IMG/VR virus record: IMGVR_UViG_3300020474_001461
Span: 1-64,000 of that record
DNA: 64,000 nucleotides
Origin: a virus
Strand: one strand, 5' to 3'
The notes under the pieces were generated by a model, which worked only from the letters and a program-made list of their open reading frames with translations, did no database searches and had not been told where the DNA came from. Of the stretch, positions 6,643 to 55,372 are shown one piece after another; the first letter of the stretch is position 1; the number at the start of each line of letters is the position of its first letter. Both the position numbers and the translations under genes were made by a program.

Positions 6643-6650
6643 TATAAATA
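6643..6650 (-). promoter_or_regulatory. TATTTATA motif (candidate late promoter); also at 10535, 16848, 17431, 19233, 22318, 39040, 59858
   Basis: Recurs mostly about 14-30 nt upstream of starts on the coding strand (59858 lies about 110 nt upstream of the SSB start). Confidence 0.5.
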
Positions 6651-8611: not shown

Positions 8612-9181
8612 TTTTTTTCTCAATCTAAACTTAGGATTTAGATATTTATCGTATAATTTATCTAACTGTTGTTCTGATAATCCTAAATCTAATAATCTAA
8701 TTACATCTTTTGAACCAATAGAATCTTCTGTATAAATGTCTTCATACCAAATTAAATGTGTCGTAACTGTCCTTGAGTAAAAGTTTAGTAACCATTTATA
8801 GTTTTCTATAACGTGACTTAAAGATGGTTTTGTGATTTTTTCAGTTGGTTTATATTCATTTATATATCCATATTTAAATGCGTTTTGATGACTAATTACA
8901 GTTTCCCTAAAGTTTCCTCTCATCAATATGATAGTTTTATCAAACTGTCTATAGTTTTCATCAATCCACTCATTTTGAAAGTTTGGACCTGCTAATGTTT
9001 TGAATATAACATTCTCACCAATCTCATCACCTTTTTGAAATGGTGGGTTTGTTTTGTAGTAACTTTTCCATAATGACCGATTAAATGGTTCTATAATCAT
9101 TTTATGATTCATAACATCTGAAAGTCCGTAATGAAGTGATGTACTACCACATCTTCCGTGTCCTAATAATAATATTTTCAT
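8597..9181 (-). CDS. Sulfotransferase-fold protein
   Basis: LLLGHGRCGSTSL PAPS-binding loop, EPFN, IWYED. Confidence 0.7.
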   Translation of the reverse strand: MKILLLGHGRCGSTSLHYGLSDVMNHKMIIEPFNRSLWKSYYKTNPPFQKGDEIGENVIFKTLAGPNFQNEWIDENYRQFDKTIILMRGNFRETVISHQNAFKYGYINEYKPTEKITKPSLSHVIENYKWLLNFYSRTVTTHLIWYEDIYTEDSIGSKDVIRLLDLGLSEQQLDKLYDKYLNPKFRLRKKLTQI

Positions 9182-10514: not shown

Positions 10515-10557
10515 ATGTAACTTTCTTTATTTTATATAAATATAATTTTAAATTTAA

Positions 10558-16846: not shown

Positions 16847-17416
16847 TTATAAATATGTCTTCGACAACTCTTCTATATGATTTTCTATTAATTTCTTTTT
16901 TTGACTTGATGTCAGGTGTTCAACTGCGAGTACAGATTTGATTCTTACATCAGGATATTTTCTTTGTAACTGTTGTACTGCTCTTACATTTTTAAGTGAA
17001 TCATCCATAAATGCAATATCAGTATAACCTTTTGATATATGTTTTTCAATCCAATCTGCTTTATCTTTAGGATTGTTACTTGCTAATGTGACAGGATATA
17101 CGTCCAATCCGTATTCATCTTTAAAAAACTTTCTGATTGGGAATCCTAATGCTCTTGCTGTAAGTATCGTAACCTTTTTATTTGGGTTTTTTAACATTTG
17201 TTGGAGTAACTTGAAGTTTTTCTTAATTACTTGGGGGTTGTTCAACATACTGTTAAAATCTCTGAAGTCGAACTCATCACCTCTTTTTGGTTTATATTTT
17301 GCATATTGAGAAGGTGATAAAGTTGTTTCTTTTCCATCTTTATGTTTTACATAGATGTATGCTACACTTTTTGCAAGTGTATCATCAAAATCAAAAACTC
17401 TTAATATTCTACCCAT
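16847..17416 (-). CDS. HAD-superfamily phosphatase (PNKP/RNA-repair-type)
   Basis: LRVFDFDDTL, ILTAR, K, FMDDS. Confidence 0.75.
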   Translation of the reverse strand: MGRILRVFDFDDTLAKSVAYIYVKHKDGKETTLSPSQYAKYKPKRGDEFDFRDFNSMLNNPQVIKKNFKLLQQMLKNPNKKVTILTARALGFPIRKFFKDEYGLDVYPVTLASNNPKDKADWIEKHISKGYTDIAFMDDSLKNVRAVQQLQRKYPDVRIKSVLAVEHLTSSQKKKLIENHIEELSKTYL

Positions 17417-17430
17417 AATTTATCCTTTAG

Positions 17431-17484
17431 TATAAATATACGAAATTTTTGGTAATTTTCCAAATATTTTAACACTTTTTAACA
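17431..17484 (-). promoter_or_regulatory. Composite promoter (TTTGG-N19-TATATTTA overlapping TATTTATA) with inverted TTAACA boxes
   Basis: Motif spacing counted; TTAACA reads on the + strand at 17469 and 17479. Confidence 0.6.
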
Positions 17485-18291: not shown

Positions 18292-18669
18292 TTATTTGAT
18301 TTTCTTTAAAATAGGTTCAATATCTAATGCTATCGTATATTGTTCTTTATGTCTGTATTCGATAGGAACAAATCTTTGTTTTGTTTTCTTTGATGCGAAC
18401 TCTGCTAATTGTTTAGTGATATCATCTTTTGATATACTACCCAAAGTATCAATCTTATCCAAGTCTTTTGAACTCTTTGGAATACAAATTAAAGTTGGAC
18501 CTTTACCTAAGTAATCAGCATTAACATAATTAAAATTAAACTCAACATATTGAGATGGTAGTTGTGAGTCTTTTGCGTTTGATGTTAATACAACCTTTGC
18601 TTTTCCATAAAACATCACTTCGTTTAATGGTTGTTTTCCTTCGTTCAATATGTCTTTTAATTTTATCAT
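18292..18669 (-). CDS. Hypothetical protein, probable head-internal protein
   Basis: MIKLKDILNE...PLNE leader. Confidence 0.55.
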   Translation of the reverse strand: MIKLKDILNEGKQPLNEVMFYGKAKVVLTSNAKDSQLPSQYVEFNFNYVNADYLGKGPTLICIPKSSKDLDKIDTLGSISKDDITKQLAEFASKKTKQRFVPIEYRHKEQYTIALDIEPILKKIK

Positions 18670-18675
18670 AATTTT

Positions 18676-19215
18676 CTAATTTAATAAATACCCGTAAGGT
18701 GTTGCGTCTATATCCAATCCTATTGGATAGTTTTCTAATCTTAAATCAACACTCATATTTCTTTGAATGTATGGATTGTAAAACTGACCTACGGCAGTTA
18801 AACAAATTAATCCATTGTGTACATCCATTACTTGAACATCATTCCAAATAATATATTCTTGGTCGCCTGGTATTTCAACACCTGCATATTTGTTATCAGG
18901 ATTTTCCCAAGTGTATTGTCCGATATCTAATAACGCTCCATTATCATCTGCGTCTGAATCTAAACAATACAATGCGAAATGTTGTCTGTCCAATCTTGGT
19001 TCTCCATCATCTACTTGTAGATAAAGGATAAATATTTTCTTGATAGTATCACCGTATTTTATACCACCAAATGTTTTGATTTGTGCGTATCTATCATTTG
19101 GGTCAAAAGACTCACCATCAAGTGAAATCTCTAATACAGGTTCTAATATCTCTTCCTTTTCACAGGAAATAAATAAAAATGACAAAACACTTAAAAATAC
19201 TAATAATTTTTTCAT
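18676..19215 (-). CDS. Lipoprotein (Bacteroidota-type)
   Basis: MKKLLVFLSVLSFLFIS-C-EKEE: lipobox plus K-(D/E)2 signal. Confidence 0.75.
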   Translation of the reverse strand: MKKLLVFLSVLSFLFISCEKEEILEPVLEISLDGESFDPNDRYAQIKTFGGIKYGDTIKKIFILYLQVDDGEPRLDRQHFALYCLDSDADDNGALLDIGQYTWENPDNKYAGVEIPGDQEYIIWNDVQVMDVHNGLICLTAVGQFYNPYIQRNMSVDLRLENYPIGLDIDATPYGYLLN

Positions 19216-19240
19216 ACTAATTTCTCCTACGATATAAATA

Positions 19241-19888
19241 TCATAACCTTTTCATTTTATTTAGATAATCATACATTGAATATCCTAACTTCATACCGAA
19301 CTTTGAATCGGTCTCGTAATGTGCTCTTCCAATATTTCTACTTCTTGAAATATCTCTACCCAAATTCATGAAATTATACTCATGGTCAGGGTACATATCT
19401 GACATTACTTTCGCTATAAGTATTCCTTGACAGGAATGACCACTTGGATATGATGGGGTGTTCATTGACTCCATATATGCTTCTTTTCCAATATCAATCT
19501 TTACCAACGGGTGGTCAGCAATTTGATATGGTCTTGGTCTATTATAGTGAATCTTTAGTGTTCTTGTGAATATTCTACTGTCATCTAATAGTTGGTCTAC
19601 CAAGGATTGGGGAAAATCTAATCCTTGTATATCGCAGTAGTTTTTAAATACTTTGTCAATAGCATCCATTTCTCTGACAAAATCTATATCGTGAGGAAGG
19701 TCACTTAACTTCCTTAATTCTATTTTTACTTTTGATGAATCATTCTGAGGTGGTGGGTTACCTTTGAAATACTCAATAGGGAATCCTTGAAGAAGGTTTG
19801 GTTTTTGATTTATTACCTTTATATCCTTCTTTCTTGGTTCATCCATGAACCTCATGGATTTTAAACTGAGTATATCACCTAATTTCAT
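19241..19888 (-). CDS. PAP2/haloperoxidase-superfamily acid phosphatase
   Basis: K..YNRPRP, PSYPSGH, SR..GRAHY.TD. Confidence 0.88.
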   Translation of the reverse strand: MKLGDILSLKSMRFMDEPRKKDIKVINQKPNLLQGFPIEYFKGNPPPQNDSSKVKIELRKLSDLPHDIDFVREMDAIDKVFKNYCDIQGLDFPQSLVDQLLDDSRIFTRTLKIHYNRPRPYQIADHPLVKIDIGKEAYMESMNTPSYPSGHSCQGILIAKVMSDMYPDHEYNFMNLGRDISRSRNIGRAHYETDSKFGMKLGYSMYDYLNKMKRL

Positions 19889-20028
19889 CTCCCTTGGCCT
19901 CTGTATGGTTTTTTATAGTGTTTACTGTTTTTACCCTTTGACGTTTTTGTCTTAGAGTGAATACCTGGCCTCTTCTTCTTAGGTTTATCGTAATAAGTAG
20001 AGGTACCAAATCCTTTCGCTTTTGCCAT
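19885..20028 (-). CDS. Small highly basic protein (47 aa, ...KKKRPGIHSKTKTSK...YRGQGR)
   Basis: Hand-translated; ATGA overlap with the PAP2 gene. Confidence 0.65.
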   Translation of the reverse strand: MAKAKGFGTSTYYDKPKKKRPGIHSKTKTSKGKNSKHYKKPYRGQGR

Positions 20029-20042
20029 TTAATGCAACCTTT

Positions 20043-20450
20043 CTAAAACTGTGAAGCGGACTTGAGTTCATCGATGTGTTCTTGTAACTCTTGTAAGTCA
20101 ACAGGACACTCTAAATCTAATCCCGCTTTATACATTTCTTCTTTTATACCATCTTTGAATACTATAATGGTCGGTGCCATTCGTATTCTATATTCTTTTT
20201 TAGCGTTTGGTGCTTTTGATATATCAATTCTGTAATAGTGAGTTATTCCTTCAACTTTATCCCAATCTTGGAATGCGTTTGCGTCATTAAACTTTGCCCA
20301 AAACTCAACTATAACAATTGACATTTCATCGTCACCAAATGCGGACTTTTCATGGATTTTATCATCAAAATTACTATCTGTTATCCAATCTTGTCCAAAT
20401 ACGTTACTAAAACTCATTAATAACGATATTAAAAAAACTATCTTTTTCAT
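20043..20450 (-). CDS. Secreted thioredoxin-fold protein lacking CxxC
   Basis: Signal peptide VFG|Q; VEFWAKFN in place of VDFWAxWCxxC; YRIRMAPTIIVFKDG cis-Pro loop. Confidence 0.75.
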   Translation of the reverse strand: MKKIVFLISLLMSFSNVFGQDWITDSNFDDKIHEKSAFGDDEMSIVIVEFWAKFNDANAFQDWDKVEGITHYYRIDISKAPNAKKEYRIRMAPTIIVFKDGIKEEMYKAGLDLECPVDLQELQEHIDELKSASQF

Positions 20451-20461
20451 GCTAACCTATT

Positions 20462-20746
20462 TTAGTTATTCTTTTGTATCTCGTACAATCTCTCATCTAT
20501 CTTATCGAGTTTGTCTTTGATTTCATCTACATCATCTTGAGTATCTAAAATTGTCTGGCGAATTAATTCGTCCTTTAAATCATACTCAGTTCTGTCTATA
20601 ACAGGCTCAGGTAATTCCTTTGCCTCTTGAATGTCACCCTGTAAGGTGAACCACATTCCAATAACTGTTGCTAAAGTAAATAAGATTACCCCGATTGTTT
20701 TTAAATCGAGGGTTATTTTTGTTTCTTCTGATACTTGCTTTGCCAT
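20462..20746 (-). CDS. Single-pass membrane protein with C-terminal coiled coil
   Basis: TIGVILFTLATVIGMWF, then heptads (DVDEIKDKLDKIDERL). Confidence 0.7.
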   Translation of the reverse strand: MAKQVSEETKITLDLKTIGVILFTLATVIGMWFTLQGDIQEAKELPEPVIDRTEYDLKDELIRQTILDTQDDVDEIKDKLDKIDERLYEIQKNN

Positions 20747-20763
20747 AACAAATCCTCTTAATC

Positions 20764-22017
20764 CTATCTAAATGTATAATTTATACCAAATGTTGTAATG
20801 AAAAATTTAGAATCCCACATTTGAGTATATTCACCTTCTGCAAATAACCCGATTGATTTTCCGATTTTCCATCCAAAGTTTGCACCTGCTTGGTAATCCC
20901 ACCACTGTTCACCTTTTGCTGCGTCTGCTAACCCATATTGGTCCCAATCGTTTCTGTATAAGTAAGATAGAGGAACTCTTCCTTGTTCATCTGTATCACC
21001 CATTACATACTTGTGATATGGTAAAAATGCTGAACCGTATAGGTGTAACCAAAAGTTTGACTTGTAGTGATAGAAATCAAAACCTACAACTGGCGATATC
21101 AATCCAAATTCTGAGGTGTTACCTAATATTTCTTGGTTATATCTTGAAATCAGTCTTTTGTAAGGACCATCTCTAAATTGCAAATCCGAAGATGCGACTC
21201 TTCTTCCTTCAGGGTCCCACCAAAAATAACCACCTATGTTTTCTTCTTCACCTGAAATTGGATTGAAGATTGTTGTGGTATAAAATGCGTCTTGGAATCC
21301 ATACTCATATGCCAACTCATACCAATAGTTTTCTTGGTTTCCGTCTCCGTCCAATGCACTTACCCAAATCTCATATGGATTAACTCCATAAACTCTTTCG
21401 TGAGTTCTAAATGCTGCACCTGCTGATATAGAGAACTTTTTACCGATTGGTAATCTTCCTCTTACTTCTGCTGCACTATAGTTAAAGTCAAATGCACCTT
21501 GATATCTTTGTTCAAGTTTTACGATATGGTATTTACCTGTATGTCTAAGGAAGTATCTTAGGTTTTCCCACTCTTCACCTCTTCTTCGTTCCTTCTCAAA
21601 GTGGAATAAGTATTCCCAACCTTGAACTGCTGAAGTTGGTGCGATTAATGCGTTTTGTCTTTCTAAGTTTTGGTCACCTGTCCAAAAGTTACCTGGCTTT
21701 CTTTCATATCCAAAACGACCTAATTTACGAATACCGAAGCCGATTCTGTAATCCGATGGAAAGTATTCAGTAACATCTACTACTTCAGGTACATCGTAGA
21801 TACCTTGTCCATCAGGAGTTCTGATTAGATATTTCTTATCTGAACTTTCATAAGGTGCTCTATAATCACCAGCTCCATATACTGTTGCGTATTTGAAGAA
21901 GTTATCATAGAAAGTTTTGAATATTGGTTTTTTGTCTTTCTTTTTTTCATCTTGTGCATTTACACCTGCTGGTATAATCATCAAGATAATCATCAAAATT
22001 GATAATAAATTTTTCAT
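20764..22017 (-). CDS. Putative outer-membrane beta-barrel protein
   Basis: Signal peptide VNA|Q; many alternating amphipathic strands; aromatic-rich; ends FGINYTFR (beta-signal-like). Confidence 0.7.
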   Translation of the reverse strand: MKNLLSILMIILMIIPAGVNAQDEKKKDKKPIFKTFYDNFFKYATVYGAGDYRAPYESSDKKYLIRTPDGQGIYDVPEVVDVTEYFPSDYRIGFGIRKLGRFGYERKPGNFWTGDQNLERQNALIAPTSAVQGWEYLFHFEKERRRGEEWENLRYFLRHTGKYHIVKLEQRYQGAFDFNYSAAEVRGRLPIGKKFSISAGAAFRTHERVYGVNPYEIWVSALDGDGNQENYWYELAYEYGFQDAFYTTTIFNPISGEEENIGGYFWWDPEGRRVASSDLQFRDGPYKRLISRYNQEILGNTSEFGLISPVVGFDFYHYKSNFWLHLYGSAFLPYHKYVMGDTDEQGRVPLSYLYRNDWDQYGLADAAKGEQWWDYQAGANFGWKIGKSIGLFAEGEYTQMWDSKFFITTFGINYTFR

Positions 22018-22039
22018 CGTGGTTCTTTACCCTTCTCTT

Positions 22040-22288
22040 CTACTTTTTAGCGAACTTTTCTAACCCTGCAATCCCAAAACAACCTAACGTTACAAATACA
22101 AAAGAATTGTATATAAACTCGTTGATTACTAAGTCTTTTCCAAAGTAACCTGTAGCAAGGTCAAAGAATGCGAATAACGTCATTACTGCAAATGACATGA
22201 ATCCAATCACGTTTTTTTCATTGATATCGTTGTCATCTTTAAAAATGTCTTTAAATGCCATCCATTTTCTCCTAATATATTTTATCAT
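22040..22288 (-). CDS. Holin-like 2-TM protein
   Basis: Two TM helices, basic C-terminus, next to the endolysin; two possible Met starts (M1, M10). Confidence 0.55.
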   Translation of the reverse strand: MIKYIRRKWMAFKDIFKDDNDINEKNVIGFMSFAVMTLFAFFDLATGYFGKDLVINEFIYNSFVFVTLGCFGIAGLEKFAKK

Positions 22289-22335
22289 AATATAACCTTT
22301 TTATAACTTGTTACTAATATAAATAGTCTGTTTTT

Positions 22336-23217
22336 CTACAAACTTACTAACATATCCAATAATTCCTCTTGTGGGAACATATCGAATTTATCTTTACGAG
22401 TATTGGTGTGTGTCCACATACCTTTTACTCTTCCATAATATGCGTCTTCATTGAATTCAAATCCATCTGCACCTTTTTGTTTTACTTCTTCTACAAGACC
22501 TTTTCTTACATCGATATTATCTCGTTCTGCAATCCATAAAATCCATAGTCTTAATGCTTCAATTTGTTTATCTGAATATCTATGCCAATGTTTAAATCCT
22601 CTAAATGGTTTGTCCAAAGACACCATTTGTGATTCATGTGCAGTTGTTCCTGCATATGTTTTTCCATCTTTCAGATATCCAAAGTTATTTACCTCAATAC
22701 CAACAGAATGTGTATGCATATGTTGTGAACCATTTTTACCTAAGTGCCATCCGTAGTGTCCTTCAGGAAATGCCTGAACCATTACTCCGTCATATGTTTC
22801 GTCATTACCTTTTATTGATTGTCCACCTAATACGAATTCAGTTGCTACTGCACCTCTACTATCTCGACCCCAATGGTCAATAGTTCTATATGGATTCTGC
22901 CATCCCGCTGTATGATGTAAGAATACATACTCTTTGTTAGTTATTCCACTTTTGTATTCACCTACAGGTAAATAATGTCTATTAACTACTAATCCGTTTT
23001 CTGTTGTGAATGTTTTCTCAGAATCATCAGTAGTAGCAAGACCCATAGAATCCCAAGTGGAAGGACCAACAATACCATCAGGAACCAAACCATTGGCTTT
23101 TTGAAACTCCTGAACTGCTTTTTTAGTTCCTTCACCGAATATACCATCTGCTCCTATTTCTAAAAATTCTTGTAAATCTTTTACTTCTTGTCCTCTCGAA
23201 CCTACTCTAAGTATCAT
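22336..23217 (-). CDS. Endolysin: peptidoglycan-binding domain plus N-acetylmuramoyl-L-alanine amidase
   Basis: DGIFGEGTKKAVQEFQ..NGL..DGIVGP; LHHTAG, SVGIEV, TH...RKDK.D. Confidence 0.9.
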   Translation of the reverse strand: MILRVGSRGQEVKDLQEFLEIGADGIFGEGTKKAVQEFQKANGLVPDGIVGPSTWDSMGLATTDDSEKTFTTENGLVVNRHYLPVGEYKSGITNKEYVFLHHTAGWQNPYRTIDHWGRDSRGAVATEFVLGGQSIKGNDETYDGVMVQAFPEGHYGWHLGKNGSQHMHTHSVGIEVNNFGYLKDGKTYAGTTAHESQMVSLDKPFRGFKHWHRYSDKQIEALRLWILWIAERDNIDVRKGLVEEVKQKGADGFEFNEDAYYGRVKGMWTHTNTRKDKFDMFPQEELLDMLVSL

Positions 23218-23538
23218 TTATTTCCTCTTTTTACGACCTGCACAATGAGCTTTTTGAGAAAAACCTTTTGGATTGTTACAGTCTATTGATTTTTTATATT
23301 TGTCTGACCATTTCTCATCAATCTTTTTGATGAGTTCTTCTAACTGTTTGTATAAGGATTCCTTTTTACTTGGAAGTCCTTTATGTTTAGTTGAAGCATA
23401 TTTTTTAATATCTGACTTGGACATTCTCTTAGCCGTATCTCTAACATCTTTAGAAACATCAGATGGTTTTACATCACCTTTTTTCAAAGCATATACAAGA
23501 CCCATATATTTCTGTTGTTGTTTACTTGTTGACGGCAT
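23218..23538 (-). CDS. Basic phage protein (DUF3008-like N-terminus)
   Basis: MPSTSKQQQKYMG...; KWSDKYKKSIDCNNPKGFSQKAHC. Confidence 0.6.
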   Translation of the reverse strand: MPSTSKQQQKYMGLVYALKKGDVKPSDVSKDVRDTAKRMSKSDIKKYASTKHKGLPSKKESLYKQLEELIKKIDEKWSDKYKKSIDCNNPKGFSQKAHCAGRKKRK

Positions 23539-39039: not shown

Positions 39040-39073
39040 TATAAATATACAAAAAAAATTAATTAAATCCTAT
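39040..39073 (-). promoter_or_regulatory. Promoter of the glycan island
   Basis: ATAGG-N19-TATATTTA overlapping TATTTATA. Confidence 0.5.
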
Positions 39074-52579: not shown

Positions 52580-54364
52580 TTAACCATCACAGGATACACA
52601 ATCAGGGTCCAATGCTCGTGCTGCGATATCACCACGAAGGACGGACTCTGTTCTCATATAGTATAAAGTTTTAATCCCTTGTTTCCATGATTCCATAGTG
52701 ACTTGATTAATCCACTTTGGACTTGCTTCAGATGGAAACGCCAGATTCAACGAAACTGATTGGTCAATATATTGCTGTCTAACACCTGCCTGTCTAATTA
52801 ATTCTAACTGATTAATTTCTTTAAAAGTCTTAAATACATCTTTAACCCAAAAAACTTGTTCTTTATCAAATGATTCTTGTGGGATATCTTCTCTTTTTAG
52901 TAGTTTTCCATCTACATATCCCCAATCATCTAATTGTTTAATATCTTGAACTGAACCACCATCTTCTAAGATTTTATCCCAAGTTGGTTTTTTATTTATA
53001 CCAACTTTTCTAAGAACTTTTTCTAATTCAAGATTCTTACGGATAAATGTACCTTTTGCTGTTTGTTCAGTAAATACATTTGATGGCCATGGTTCAATAC
53101 CTGCTGAAACATTACCACTTAGTTTAGAGTTGGATACAGTTGGTGCGATTGCTCTTAAGTGAGTGTTTCTAAATCCACTATCTTTACACCATAATGGTTC
53201 ACCCATTTCTGTTGCCATATCTCTACTTGCTCTTTCTGATTCAATTTTTATTTGTGAAAAAATCTTACGAGTTTCAAATTGAGAAGGTAATCCTTCAAAT
53301 GAAATACCTTTTCTTTGTAAGTAAGTATGCCATCCAAGAACACCTAATCCTAATGCTCTACCTTTTTCTGCAGAACGAACTGAATTTTCAAATCCTCTCA
53401 TGTTTTTTGCTTTTTGGATAAACTCTGAAAGAACTCCATCCAAGAACCAAGTTGCTGTATAAATTAAATCAGTATCTTTCCACTCATCGTACTTTGCTAA
53501 GTTAAGTGAAGACAAACAACAAACAAATGAGTGATTTTCATCTGTATGTAATACGATTTCAGAACAGATATTAGTCATGAAAACTTTCAATCCATTATCT
53601 TTATACATTGGTGGATTTGCGTTGTTTACGTTACCTTTAAACATGATATACGGTTCACCTGTTGCTTTTCTCTTCTGAAGTAATTTACCCCATCTTCTTC
53701 TTGCTTCAGATTCACCATCTTCTAATTTTCTCATAAACTTGTTACCAACAACAACACACTGATGTAAGTTCATACATTGTCTATTTACATCACCTTTTGG
53801 TTCTCTTATTTCAATCCATTCATCAAAATCATCGTGTTCGATATTCAAGTTTACAGATGCTGCTCCTCTTCTAACTGCACCTTGATTTGTTGCAAGGATT
53901 GTAGAATCATAAATCTTACAAAATGGTACGACACCATCAGATGTTCCGTTTTGTGTAATGTTAGAACCTGCGGGTCTAATCATATTTACTCCAATACCTA
54001 CTCCACCACCGTGTTTTGCAAGTAACATCATTTCTAAGTTTTTGTGACCAATTTCTTGAATTGAATCTCCTACATCAATACCAAAACAACTAATTGGTAA
54101 ACCTCTGTCTGTTCCCGTATTGGATAATACAGGTGACGCCAGATTTAACCACCCTTTCCATATGTAATCAAAAAACTTTGACGCAAGTTGTGGTTTATTC
54201 AGTCTTCTTGCAACTGCTGTTGATACTCTCCAATATGCGTCTTTGGGTTTTTCGTCAGGAAGTAAATAACCTTTTGATATTGTTTTTACATAGATTTCCG
54301 TGTTTGCCCAAACAGGAAAATCTACACCAACTTCCCAACCTAAATTTTCTGCGTAATTCTTCAT
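52580..54364 (-). CDS. nrdA: Ribonucleotide reductase class Ia alpha subunit (no ATP cone evident)
   Basis: PISCF, TNICSEI, VCCLSS, IAPT, KTLYY, C-terminal CVSC. Confidence 0.95.
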   Translation of the reverse strand: MKNYAENLGWEVGVDFPVWANTEIYVKTISKGYLLPDEKPKDAYWRVSTAVARRLNKPQLASKFFDYIWKGWLNLASPVLSNTGTDRGLPISCFGIDVGDSIQEIGHKNLEMMLLAKHGGGVGIGVNMIRPAGSNITQNGTSDGVVPFCKIYDSTILATNQGAVRRGAASVNLNIEHDDFDEWIEIREPKGDVNRQCMNLHQCVVVGNKFMRKLEDGESEARRRWGKLLQKRKATGEPYIMFKGNVNNANPPMYKDNGLKVFMTNICSEIVLHTDENHSFVCCLSSLNLAKYDEWKDTDLIYTATWFLDGVLSEFIQKAKNMRGFENSVRSAEKGRALGLGVLGWHTYLQRKGISFEGLPSQFETRKIFSQIKIESERASRDMATEMGEPLWCKDSGFRNTHLRAIAPTVSNSKLSGNVSAGIEPWPSNVFTEQTAKGTFIRKNLELEKVLRKVGINKKPTWDKILEDGGSVQDIKQLDDWGYVDGKLLKREDIPQESFDKEQVFWVKDVFKTFKEINQLELIRQAGVRQQYIDQSVSLNLAFPSEASPKWINQVTMESWKQGIKTLYYMRTESVLRGDIAARALDPDCVSCDG

Positions 54365-54376
54365 AACTAATTTTTC

Positions 54377-55372
54377 TTAAAATATGTCGTCCCAATCTTC
54401 ACCTTCATTTGCCTTGCTATAATCAGTAGGTCTGATAGCGAAGAAATCCGTATGTGTTTGTCCACCTGTTAAATGGTAGAACCAATCTAATTCTGATGCT
54501 GACTCGTCATCATAGTCTGTAATGACCTCATCATATCCTAATTCTTTGTATTTTTCGTTTATTCTTCTTTTGATAAAGTTTTTAAGGTCTTCTTTTTTGA
54601 GATTTTCTAAATCACCTTTTTCAAACATTTTATCAATAAATTTTAGTTCCAAATCTAACATAGTTTCTGCTGCCTCTCTAATTACAGGTTTTGCGTCTTC
54701 TATTAGTTCGGGATACTCATTACACATATGTCTAAATAATTGAATACCCATTTTAGAGTGTAATGATTCGTCTCTTACACTCCATTTCATTTGTTGACCA
54801 ATACCTTTTAGTCTGTTTCTCATTTGGAATGAGTAAAGTACTGCGAATGAAGAATAAAGTGCTACTCCTTCTGCAAATGCACTAAATATAGCAAGAGACC
54901 TTGCTACTTCAGTTCTTGCCTTTGGATTTGTTTTTAAATCCTCAAAAGTATAATCTGATGATACTTCTGCTAATGTCTCAAATCTTTCTGCTGTTGCAGG
55001 TTCGTGTAAAAATGCTTCAAAGTCTTCTAAACCTAATGATTCGTTTAGATATGAATATGCTGTTGCGTGAATGGTTTCTTGTGAACCAAACATCATTGCC
55101 ATCTGTTTTATTTCATGTTTTGGAAACCAATGTGTTACCATAGTTGTCCAATAATCCGATACTGCACATTCAGTTTGAGCAAACCCAAGTAATATATTAC
55201 CAACTAAGTGTTTTTCCTCAACTGACAAATTTTCATTCCAATCTTTGATGTCACCCTGCATAGGGATTTCTGTATGTAACCAAAATGCTTGTGCTTGTTT
55301 TAACCAACCTTCTGTATAGTATTGTGGATATTCAAATGGTTTAAAGGGTATACGATTGTCAAATAATCCCAT
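54377..55372 (-). CDS. nrdB: Ribonucleotide reductase beta subunit
   Basis: QETIHATAY, EGVALYSSF, RDESLH, DFF. Confidence 0.95.
   Translation of the reverse strand: MGLFDNRIPFKPFEYPQYYTEGWLKQAQAFWLHTEIPMQGDIKDWNENLSVEEKHLVGNILLGFAQTECAVSDYWTTMVTHWFPKHEIKQMAMMFGSQETIHATAYSYLNESLGLEDFEAFLHEPATAERFETLAEVSSDYTFEDLKTNPKARTEVARSLAIFSAFAEGVALYSSFAVLYSFQMRNRLKGIGQQMKWSVRDESLHSKMGIQLFRHMCNEYPELIEDAKPVIREAAETMLDLELKFIDKMFEKGDLENLKKEDLKNFIKRRINEKYKELGYDEVITDYDDESASELDWFYHLTGGQTHTDFFAIRPTDYSKANEGEDWDDIF

What the first reader, a model, noticed from the sequence alone, without database searches (positions are those of the whole stretch)
20043..22288. Candidate undescribed trans-envelope system: OM beta-barrel, single-pass coiled-coil protein and secreted CxxC-less thioredoxin fold beside holin/endolysin
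Seen: directly downstream of the amidase and holin-like genes, three co-oriented genes spaced 11-22 nt apart encode (1) a 417-aa signal-peptide protein with amphipathic strands, a large acidic/aromatic insertion and a terminal beta-signal-like FGINYTFR; (2) a 94-aa protein with one TM helix and a coiled coil; (3) an exported Trx fold whose WCxxC is replaced by WAKFN, so it is probably non-redox. Together they could occupy OM, IM and periplasm. No canonical Rz/Rz1 pair is evident. Known: Gram-negative lysis needs OM disruption; phage porins (Lom, Lc, NmpC) are single genes. Inference: a three-component machine acting as a non-canonical spanin, a nutrient or DNA channel, or a superinfection-exclusion device. 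I recall similar triads in marine phage contigs but cannot verify that here.
Basis: partly seen in the sequence, partly recalled or inferred. Interest (0 to 1): 0.78.

Follow-up and report, generated by a model that had tools for sequence, protein, structure and literature searches.

The report
Phage envelope triad beside lysis genes
An uncultured marine T4-like phage carries a conserved, phage-only gene trio (an outer-membrane barrel, an inner-membrane coiled-coil protein and a redox-dead exported thioredoxin fold) that usually sits beside the genes that burst the cell. It may be an undescribed way of handling the outer membrane at lysis, but its function is still unproven.

Summary
On the minus strand, an amidase endolysin and a 2-TM holin-like gene are followed at 22, 17 and 11 nt spacing by three genes:
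- a 417-aa signal-peptide protein, modelled as a ~14-strand outer-membrane barrel (pLDDT 81);
- a 94-aa N-in single-TM coiled-coil protein;
- an exported thioredoxin fold without CxxC.

All three co-occur in 62 of 69 related viral loci, across 12 barrel lineages down to ~30% identity. The genomes range from 69 kb (terminal repeats) and 117 kb to ~180 kb. I found none in 50,697 GenBank phage records.

In 42 of 69 loci the trio lies within 2.2 kb of a cell-wall enzyme, and these enzymes belong to four unrelated families. In one complete genome the endolysin is more than 40 kb away, so the link is strong but not obligatory.

No interaction could be shown: the complex prediction gave no verdict. 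Distant homologues of the coiled-coil protein carry a cytoplasmic PilB/MshE-N domain next to an H-NOX gene, which hints at regulation.

Best reading (about 0.4): a lysis-linked envelope module acting at, or controlling, the outer-membrane step. First readers of this scan noted the same module on other DNA; those notes are unverified.

The parts
22336..23217 (-). Endolysin: peptidoglycan-binding domain plus N-acetylmuramoyl-L-alanine amidase. It has no signal or SAR segment.
   Evidence: PF01471 2.8e-15, PF01510 2.9e-8, PHROG endolysin families. No hydrophobic 19-mer.
22318..22325 (-). Promoter-like octamer TATTTATA (read on the coding strand), 29 nt upstream of the holin-like start codon.
   Evidence: Seven of the 11 sense-strand copies in the window lie 14-29 nt upstream of a start codon. 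Promoter function is inferred, not shown.
22040..22288 (-). Holin-like 82-aa protein with two TM helices and basic termini.
   Evidence: TM segments. 51% identity (4e-26) to immuto26A_79, which lies beside a GH19 'chitinase' and an annotated holin in Flavobacterium phage immuto. Present in 22 related loci.
20764..22017 (-). 417-aa exported protein predicted to form a ~14-strand outer-membrane beta-barrel. It has a long conserved turn at residues 99-132 and variable external loops. It is a phage-specific family with no Pfam or PHROG match.
20462..20746 (-). 94-aa bitopic protein: 16 cytoplasmic residues, a TM at 17-35, and an acidic periplasmic coiled coil of ~59 residues.
   Evidence: N-in topology is supported by distant homologues that carry an N-terminal PilB/MshE-type cytoplasmic domain.
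20043..20450 (-). 135-aa exported thioredoxin fold. It lacks CxxC in every lineage, keeps the cis-Pro loop, ends in a conserved Phe or Tyr, and is acidic (mature pI 4.6).
19885..20028 (-). 47-aa very basic ORF (pI 10.6) that overlaps the PAP2 start by 4 nt. Similar small basic ORFs recur inside the module in the distant lineage.
   Evidence: Cluster c32.
19241..19888 (-). PAP2-superfamily phosphatase with no signal peptide or TM. It is a recurrent neighbour of the trio in close and distant lineages.
   Evidence: PF01569 7.4e-8..
18676..19215 (-). 179-aa lipoprotein (lipobox FISC followed by acidic EKEE), modelled as a small soluble 8-strand barrel. It is a frequent but dispensable fourth member of the module and is preceded by the same TATTTATA motif at 19233-19240.

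Best explanation
The three genes form a phage-specific envelope module.

Shown from sequence and models:
- A ~14-strand barrel that should be inserted into the host outer membrane.
- A small protein anchored N-in in the inner membrane, with an acidic coiled coil in the periplasm.
- A periplasmic thioredoxin-fold protein that has lost its redox site.

Inferred from conserved gene context: the module belongs to the phage's late lysis/envelope gene set. It is transcribed together with the 2-TM holin-like gene.

Inferred, and the weakest step: it serves the last step of lysis. In this model the coiled-coil protein plays the inner-membrane subunit of a spanin. It is tied to the outer membrane through the barrel, and in some phages through the lipoprotein. 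The dead thioredoxin acts as a periplasmic adaptor or chaperone that holds or assembles the complex. Once the endolysin removes the wall, the outer membrane is disrupted.
For: - The trio is complete in 62 of 69 related viral loci and in 12 barrel lineages (70% identity groups). This holds through changes of gene order and in genomes of 69, 117 and ~180 kb.
- The coiled-coil gene always sits directly upstream of the Trx gene.
- 42 of 69 loci have a cell-wall enzyme within 0-2.2 kb of the trio. The enzymes come from four unrelated families: Amidase_2, M15_3 peptidase, a PHROG endolysin-like family, and DUF5675. All four occur within the largest single barrel lineage, so the enzyme was swapped while the trio stayed.
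- The adjacent holin-like gene has a 51% identical homologue inside the lysis cluster of a cultured Flavobacterium phage.
- The coiled-coil protein has the topology that defines i-spanins.
- No lipoprotein ORF is embedded in or adjacent to it. No PHROG spanin family matches the seven proteins of this cluster that were scanned.
- In the complete 69-kb genome, the only membrane proteins beside the M15 endolysin are this family and its paralogue.
- The barrel's long turn at residues 99-132, periplasmic by the usual strand topology, is as conserved as the strands. The external loops are more variable.
- Metatranscriptome contigs from three studies cover all the genes and bridge their boundaries. 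This is weak, because DNA can be present in such libraries.
Against: - No homology to any known lysis protein.
- The periplasmic part of the coiled-coil protein is only ~59 residues (about 9 nm if fully helical), short for a spanin.
- Known o-spanins are lipoproteins, not barrels. A barrel needs BAM-dependent assembly.
- The Trx fold has no role in any known spanin.
- In a complete 117-kb genome the trio lies more than 40 kb from the amidase endolysin.
- Five of the 12 lineages have no recognised wall enzyme in the fetched flanks.
- Related loci also contain other spanin-like candidates.
- Distant homologues carry a cytoplasmic PilB/MshE-N domain (4e-8), and one lineage has an H-NOX gene (2e-45) directly upstream. 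This fits a regulator better than a passive connector.
- The host is unknown.
Confidence: 0.4

Rival explanations
1. Lysis-timing or signal-sensing device, working like the T4 holin T / antiholin RI pair. The bitopic coiled-coil protein is a single-TM holin or holin regulator. The exported Trx fold is its periplasmic binding partner. The barrel supplies an outer-membrane input, for example sensing superinfection or envelope state.
For: - The coiled-coil and Trx genes are always adjacent.
- Paralogue pairs of the coiled-coil protein occur, as is common for holin/antiholin pairs.
- In the complete 69-kb genome these are the only TM proteins beside the endolysin.
- Distant homologues carry a cytoplasmic PilB/MshE-N-type domain, and one lineage has an H-NOX sensor gene directly upstream.
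- Small single-TM proteins with new lysis roles are documented: Mu releasin (PMC9239132) and LambdaSo Lcc6 (bioRxiv 10.1101/2024.01.23.576932).
Against: - No homology to T, RI or any holin family.
- The window already has a 2-TM holin-like gene.
- Nothing explains why an outer-membrane barrel would be needed.
- The sensor domains occur only in a distant lineage.
Confidence: 0.2
2. Surface remodelling or superinfection exclusion. The phage installs its own barrel, and in many phages a surface lipoprotein, in the host outer membrane. This masks receptors or stops progeny from binding debris. The coiled-coil and Trx proteins help with assembly.
For: - The external loops of the barrel vary in length and sequence.
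- A lipoprotein with an acidic stretch right after the lipid-modified Cys is often encoded next to the barrel. From my own knowledge, this stretch resembles the Bacteroidota surface-export signal.
- The lipoprotein's 8-strand barrel fold weakly resembles surface lipoproteins such as TbpB, fHbp and PmSLP (Z 4-5) and LpqH (Z 7.4).
- From my own knowledge, phage-encoded outer-membrane proteins and lipoproteins with exclusion roles are known (lambda Lom/Bor, T5 Llp).
- The trio is not always beside the endolysin.
Against: - The lipoprotein is absent from two complete genomes that have the trio.
- Repeated adjacency to four different wall-enzyme families is not expected for an exclusion gene.
- The fold matches are at background level.
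Confidence: 0.2
3. Auxiliary solute or nutrient channel: a phage porin with two accessory proteins that raises uptake during infection.
For: Barrel fold with neighbours such as OmpG, CymA, NanC and Omp33. Marine phages carry many auxiliary metabolic genes. The trio is often next to ribonucleotide reductase genes.
Against: No porin family match. The ESM Atlas search found only virus clusters nearest the barrel, so no cellular source is evident. Known phage porins are single genes. The model does not explain the obligatory coiled-coil and Trx partners or the lysis-gene context.
Confidence: 0.08
4. No system at all: three unrelated small genes that happen to be neighbours in one phage lineage.
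For: None beyond the lack of any shown interaction.
Against: The genes co-occur through rearrangements, down to ~30% barrel identity, and in phages of very different genome size.
Confidence: 0.02

Closest known systems
Two-component spanins (lambda Rz/Rz1, T4 PseT.3/PseT.2)
   Same: Encoded in or beside lysis cassettes. One subunit is a type II inner-membrane protein with a periplasmic coiled coil, and a second subunit is anchored in the outer membrane. Both are needed only in diderm hosts.
   Different: The outer-membrane candidate here is an integral 14-strand barrel, not a small lipoprotein. There is no sequence relation. The periplasmic coil is much shorter. A third, periplasmic Trx-fold subunit has no counterpart. 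No embedded or overlapping gene architecture.
T4 holin T with antiholin RI (lysis inhibition)
   Same: T4-like phage. A bitopic N-in protein with a periplasmic domain is paired with a small exported periplasmic protein, and cytoplasmic regulatory input is possible.
   Different: No homology. T is 218 aa with a globular periplasmic domain. RI is helical, not a Trx fold. T4 lysis inhibition involves no outer-membrane protein.
Phage-encoded outer-membrane proteins (lambda Lom, cyanophage OMP-like barrels, phage porins in BFVD)
   Same: Signal peptide, beta-signal, and a barrel inserted in the host outer membrane.
   Different: Those are single genes with 8 or 16 strands and have cellular homologues. 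This family is phage-only, has ~14 strands, and always travels with two partner genes. Its best BFVD match is one unnamed viral protein (1.6e-28).
Slam / type XI secretion with surface lipoproteins
   Same: A 14-strand outer-membrane barrel encoded next to a lipoprotein whose domain is an 8-strand soluble barrel.
   Different: No DUF560 match at E<=1 and no TPR domain. The lipoprotein is optional. The fold similarity is at background level.
Thioredoxin-fold proteins without CxxC, such as redox-inactive PDI b domains (named from my own knowledge)
   Same: Trx fold with the cis-Pro loop kept and the catalytic cysteines lost. Such domains act as binding modules or chaperones.
   Different: Here the fold is a stand-alone, signal-peptide-bearing 115-aa mature protein with a conserved C-terminal Phe, encoded only in phages.

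Membership tests
Two-component spanin | i-spanin: N-terminal TM, N-in/C-out, periplasmic coiled coil | tested here: met
   TM at 17-35, acidic C-terminal heptad repeat, and a cytoplasmic domain on the N-terminus of distant homologues. The periplasmic part is only ~59 aa.
Two-component spanin | o-spanin: small outer-membrane lipoprotein gene embedded in, overlapping or adjacent to the i-spanin gene | tested here: not met
   The only lipobox ORF in 18600-23300 on the coding strand is the 179-aa gene four genes downstream. That family is absent from two complete genomes with the trio.
Two-component spanin | Sequence membership in a known spanin family | tested here: not met
   No PHROG spanin family at E<=0.1 for any of the seven proteins.
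Two-component spanin | Complex between the two subunits, and requirement for outer-membrane disruption | not testable with these tools
   Needs genetics and biochemistry.
Thioredoxin (PF00085) | Thioredoxin fold | tested here: met
   26.6 bits against a cut-off of 23.5. Family profile against solved thioredoxins: 3e-12.
Thioredoxin (PF00085) | CxxC redox site | tested here: not met
   FNDAN replaces CGPC. No lineage in 53 sequences has the motif.
Outer-membrane beta-barrel proteins | Signal peptide, C-terminal beta-signal, closed antiparallel barrel | tested here: met
   The model has 14 long strands at pLDDT 81. Distant members end in an aromatic residue. All top neighbours are outer-membrane barrels, with Z up to 11. 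This is a prediction only.
Described porin or OMP families (Pfam) | Profile match | tested here: not met
   No Pfam-A match better than E=0.17.
Slam / DUF560 translocon | DUF560 barrel with an N-terminal TPR domain | tested here: inconclusive
   No Pfam hit. I saw no Slam entry among the structural hits, so the fold was not compared with one.
Holin (for the 82-aa neighbour) | Small protein with 2 TM helices and charged termini, encoded beside the endolysin | tested here: met
   Hole formation is not testable here.

The most novel reading that the evidence does not exclude
A new class of phage outer-membrane lysis device. A phage-built beta-barrel in the outer membrane is coupled to an inner-membrane coiled-coil protein through a redox-dead thioredoxin adaptor. 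It replaces lipoprotein spanins in abundant uncultured marine phages, and in some lineages it is gated by cytoplasmic signals (c-di-GMP-type and H-NOX inputs).
Probability: 0.25. Interest if true: 0.9.

Novelty: new variant of a known kind. Interest (0 to 1): 0.68.

Why it matters
How phages of many marine bacteria breach the outer membrane is unknown. Recognisable spanins are missing or doubtful in many of them; for example, few are listed for the flavobacterial phages in PMC8776804.

This trio is abundant:
- The barrel search found over 2,100 sequence clusters at 90% identity and the Trx search about 1,500.
- Near-identical copies of this stretch occur in marine or seawater metagenomes from at least five studies, 2014-2025.

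It is phage-specific and repeatedly sits in lysis clusters. If it acts at lysis, it would add a barrel-based mechanism to spanins and disruptins. It would also give the first function for a phage-only outer-membrane protein family and for an exported pseudo-thioredoxin. If it is instead an exclusion or sensing device, it is still a new three-part envelope system that can be tested directly.

Tried and rejected
- **Complex prediction:** the four-chain job (barrel, coiled-coil periplasmic part, lipoprotein, Trx as partner) gave no verdict, score 0.00. It counts neither for nor against binding.
- **Cellular genomes:** the scan found only one close copy, on a 12-kb contig binned as a Woesearchaeota MAG. 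Its gene order is that of the phage loci, so it is probably a mis-binned phage contig. Relatives cannot be drawn for a virus record, so absence from cellular genomes rests on the ESM Atlas result only.
- **GenBank phages:** tblastn of the barrel, coiled-coil, Trx and lipoprotein proteins against 50,697 phage records found nothing.
- **Host inference failed:**
  - GroEL hits are spread over many hosts.
  - The nearest polymerase is only 48% identical, to a Microcystis phage.
  - The Bacteroidota -7 motif TAnnTTTG is not enriched.
  - Shine-Dalgarno-like sequences precede the genes. From my own knowledge, that is unusual for Bacteroidota.
- **Lipoprotein fold:** Foldseek found no match at E<=0.001.
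- **ESM Atlas leads for the coiled-coil protein:** DUF7365 and DUF2730/releasin scored 0.83-0.91, and neither family appeared in the Pfam scan at E<=1. Releasin also has the opposite topology (PMC9239132).
- **Fusion proteins:** singleton fusions were found (coiled-coil-Trx, paralogue-coiled-coil, coiled-coil-lipoprotein). Each has one member on a short contig, so they may be assembly artefacts and are not used as evidence.
- **Pelagimyophage curli cluster (PMC7029224):** considered and rejected. It is a different gene set (CsgF/CsgG).
- **Metatranscriptome gaps:** gaps in contig cover carry no information.
Full report
**What the window is**

The window is part of a 78-kb IMG/VR virus record estimated at 41% complete. 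All genes lie on the minus strand and GC is about 32%. It encodes a T4-type replication set: family B polymerase, UvsX-like recombinase, DnaB-like helicase and ribonucleotide reductase, plus GroEL. The polymerase is at most 48% identical to any GenBank phage. This is therefore a deep, uncultured T4-like marine lineage.

**The observation**

In transcription order the cluster reads as follows.
- **Endolysin, 22336-23217:** PG_binding_1 plus Amidase_2, with no export signal.
- **Holin-like gene, 22040-22288:** 82 aa, two TM segments.
- **Barrel, 20764-22017:** 417 aa, signal peptide, terminal FGINYTFR.
- **Coiled-coil protein, 20462-20746:** 94 aa, one TM at 17-35, then an acidic segment ending in a clean 3-4-3-4-3 heptad pattern.
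- **Thioredoxin fold, 20043-20450:** 135 aa, signal peptide. It scores above the Pfam cut-off for thioredoxin, and the family profile matches solved thioredoxins at 3e-12. FNDAN stands where CGPC should be.

The gaps between the last four genes are 22, 17 and 11 nt. The cluster then continues:
- a 47-aa very basic ORF at 19885-20028;
- a PAP2 phosphatase without export signals at 19241-19888;
- a 179-aa lipoprotein at 18676-19215.

The lipoprotein was not linked to the cluster.

**Is the large protein a barrel?**

An AlphaFold2 model built on 32 family members has mean pLDDT 81.3 and 14 long strands. Foldseek and VIA-align return only outer-membrane barrels at the top:
- NanC at 7e-5;
- BamA barrel at Z 11.0;
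- Omp33 at Z 10.6, CymA at Z 10.3 and OmpG at Z 9.7.

No single family stands out. No Pfam or PHROG family matches. Distant family members end in an aromatic residue, the usual assembly signal.

By the usual strand topology, residues 99-132 form a long periplasmic turn. It is as conserved as the strands (0.60 top-residue frequency). The loops at 54-88 and 332-373 are the most variable (0.45 and 0.42, with gaps).

**Is the trio a unit?**

- The barrel family has about 2,100 clusters at 90% identity. It collapses to 196 representatives at 50%.
- The 30 nearest ESM Atlas clusters carry no common Pfam family, and the three shown are 97-100% viral.
- I fetched 54 IMG/VR loci with the window's barrel and 17 more with two distant family members.
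- Profile searches of their ORFs show all three genes in 62 of 69 loci. The remaining seven are cut by contig ends or keep only a fragment of the barrel.
- The loci fall into 12 barrel lineages at 70% identity.
- Gene order changes between lineages: barrel-coil-Trx, coil-Trx-barrel, or barrel-lipoprotein-x-coil-Trx. The coiled-coil gene always directly precedes the Trx gene.
- The trio occurs in a complete 69-kb genome with terminal repeats, a complete 117-kb genome and ~180-kb genomes.
- None of the three proteins has a relative among 50,697 GenBank phage records.
- BFVD holds one unnamed viral homologue of the barrel (1.6e-28).

The Trx family lacks CxxC in every lineage. It keeps the cis-Pro loop and ends in a conserved Phe or Tyr.

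**Link to lysis**

In 42 of 69 loci a cell-wall enzyme gene lies 0-2.2 kb from the trio, with a median near 320 bp. The enzymes belong to four unrelated families:
- Amidase_2;
- M15_3 peptidase (PHROG endolysin);
- a family that matches a PHROG endolysin family at 4e-15;
- DUF5675, whose His/Cys motif resembles an L,D-peptidase by my own reading.

All four types occur within the largest barrel lineage. So the enzyme was exchanged while the trio stayed.

The 82-aa neighbour is 51% identical to a gene that lies beside the GH19 enzyme and the annotated holin of the cultured Flavobacterium phage immuto. In the complete 69-kb genome, the M15 endolysin's only membrane-protein neighbours are the coiled-coil protein and its paralogue.

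Against an obligatory link:
- The complete 117-kb genome has its amidase endolysin more than 40 kb from the trio.
- Five lineages show no recognised wall enzyme in the fetched flanks.

T4 itself scatters its lysis genes (my own knowledge), so distance alone does not exclude a lysis role.

**Regulation and expression**

The octamer TATTTATA, read on the coding strand, occurs 11 times in the window. Seven copies lie 14-29 nt upstream of start codons. These include the holin-like gene (29 nt) and the lipoprotein gene (17 nt). That is far above what the small fraction of sequence in such positions would give. I read it as a candidate phage promoter that would drive holin-barrel-coil-Trx-basic ORF-PAP2 as one transcript and the lipoprotein as another. 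This is inference.

Near-identical DNA occurs in marine or seawater metagenomes from at least five studies. Contigs from four metatranscriptome runs of three studies cover all genes and bridge the Trx/coil, coil/barrel, barrel/holin and holin/endolysin junctions. DNA carry-over cannot be excluded.

**Further members and hints**

- **The lipoprotein family** is present in 26 of 69 loci, often directly after the barrel, in both close and distant lineages. It is absent from two complete genomes with the trio, and a positive control confirmed the search works. It is therefore accessory.
  - Its model (pLDDT 84) is a small 8-strand soluble barrel with only background-level neighbours: LpqH at Z 7.4, YceI-like proteins, and TbpB-type surface lipoproteins at Z 4-5.
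  - The lipid-modified Cys is followed by an acidic run in all lineages. From my own knowledge this resembles the Bacteroidota surface-export signal.
- **A paralogue of the coiled-coil protein** (PHROG 20984, 9e-13) occurs in many loci. It is sometimes followed by a 56-63-aa lipoprotein that also has a C-terminal TM.
- **The distant lineage:** the coiled-coil protein there is 139-222 aa. In most members the extra N-terminal part matches the N-terminal domain of PilF/PilB/MshE (4e-8 to 2e-4). That domain is cytoplasmic and is known in MshE as a c-di-GMP receptor (my own knowledge). One such locus has an H-NOX gene (PF07700, 2.3e-45) directly upstream.

These facts fix the N-in topology and suggest that in some phages the protein receives cytoplasmic signals.

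**Reading**

Three things are well supported:
- the three proteins are targeted to three envelope compartments;
- they are inherited together;
- they are tied to lysis genes.

Their mechanism is not shown. I rank the readings as follows.
1. Outer-membrane-step role with spanin-like logic (0.4).
2. Lysis-timing or sensing role like T4 T/RI (0.2).
3. Surface remodelling or exclusion (0.2).
4. Solute channel (0.08).

The spanin membership test fails on the lipoprotein subunit and on homology. So this is not a spanin, even if it works like one.

First-stage notes of this scan describe the same module on other DNA. They are unverified. I reached the same gene list independently from the loci.

Noticed in passing
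window 6643-6650, 10535-10542, 16848-16855, 17431-17438, 19233-19240, 22318-22325, 39040-39047: The octamer TATTTATA (read on the coding strand) sits 14-29 nt upstream of seven start codons. It is a candidate promoter class. It is close to, but not the same as, the T4 late motif TATAAATA.
   Followed up: partly
L057:8413-8964 and L057:8964-9629 (also L061, L063, L071): In a distant lineage the coiled-coil protein has an N-terminal PilB/MshE-N-type domain. In L057 it is preceded by an H-NOX (haem-NO-binding) gene. This points to a possible gas or second-messenger input into the module.
   Followed up: partly
window 19885-20028; L057:10075-10227; L061:7880-8026: Very basic ORFs of 47-50 aa recur inside the module in both close and distant lineages, although their sequences differ. 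Function unknown.
   Followed up: no
L001:9357-9689 and L001:9686-9856; L009:8577-8906 and 8947-9132: A paralogue of the coiled-coil protein is followed by a 56-63-aa lipoprotein that also has a C-terminal hydrophobic helix. This is a spanin-like pair. It is absent from the window's record.
   Followed up: partly
L021:10868-11254 and L021:11136-11546 (also L028, L035, L052): An overlapping gene pair lies next to an endolysin-like gene. One gene is a TM-coiled-coil protein with weak Rz-like and DivIC-like hits. The other is a secreted protein with a C-terminal TM and no lipobox.
   Followed up: partly
window 19241-19888: A PAP2 phosphatase with no signal peptide or TM recurs next to the trio in several lineages. 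A first-stage note suggests capsid-targeting-like leaders on this and neighbouring enzymes. Not tested.
   Followed up: no
L005:23-6001, L029:143-5827: ORFs of 1,900-2,000 aa with no family match lie directly upstream of the barrel in many loci.
   Followed up: no
L056 (PBPJ01000057.1): A 12-kb contig binned as a Woesearchaeota MAG carries ribonucleotide reductase, the trio and the holin-like gene in phage order. It is probably a mis-binned phage contig.
   Followed up: partly
G002:C1:9454-9885 (L079): In the 117-kb genome a 143-aa signal-peptide protein that looks like a small barrel lies one gene upstream of the amidase endolysin.
   Followed up: no
window 52580-55372 and many loci: Ribonucleotide reductase genes lie within 6 kb of the trio in about 25 of the related loci, but 30 kb away in the window.
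   Followed up: no
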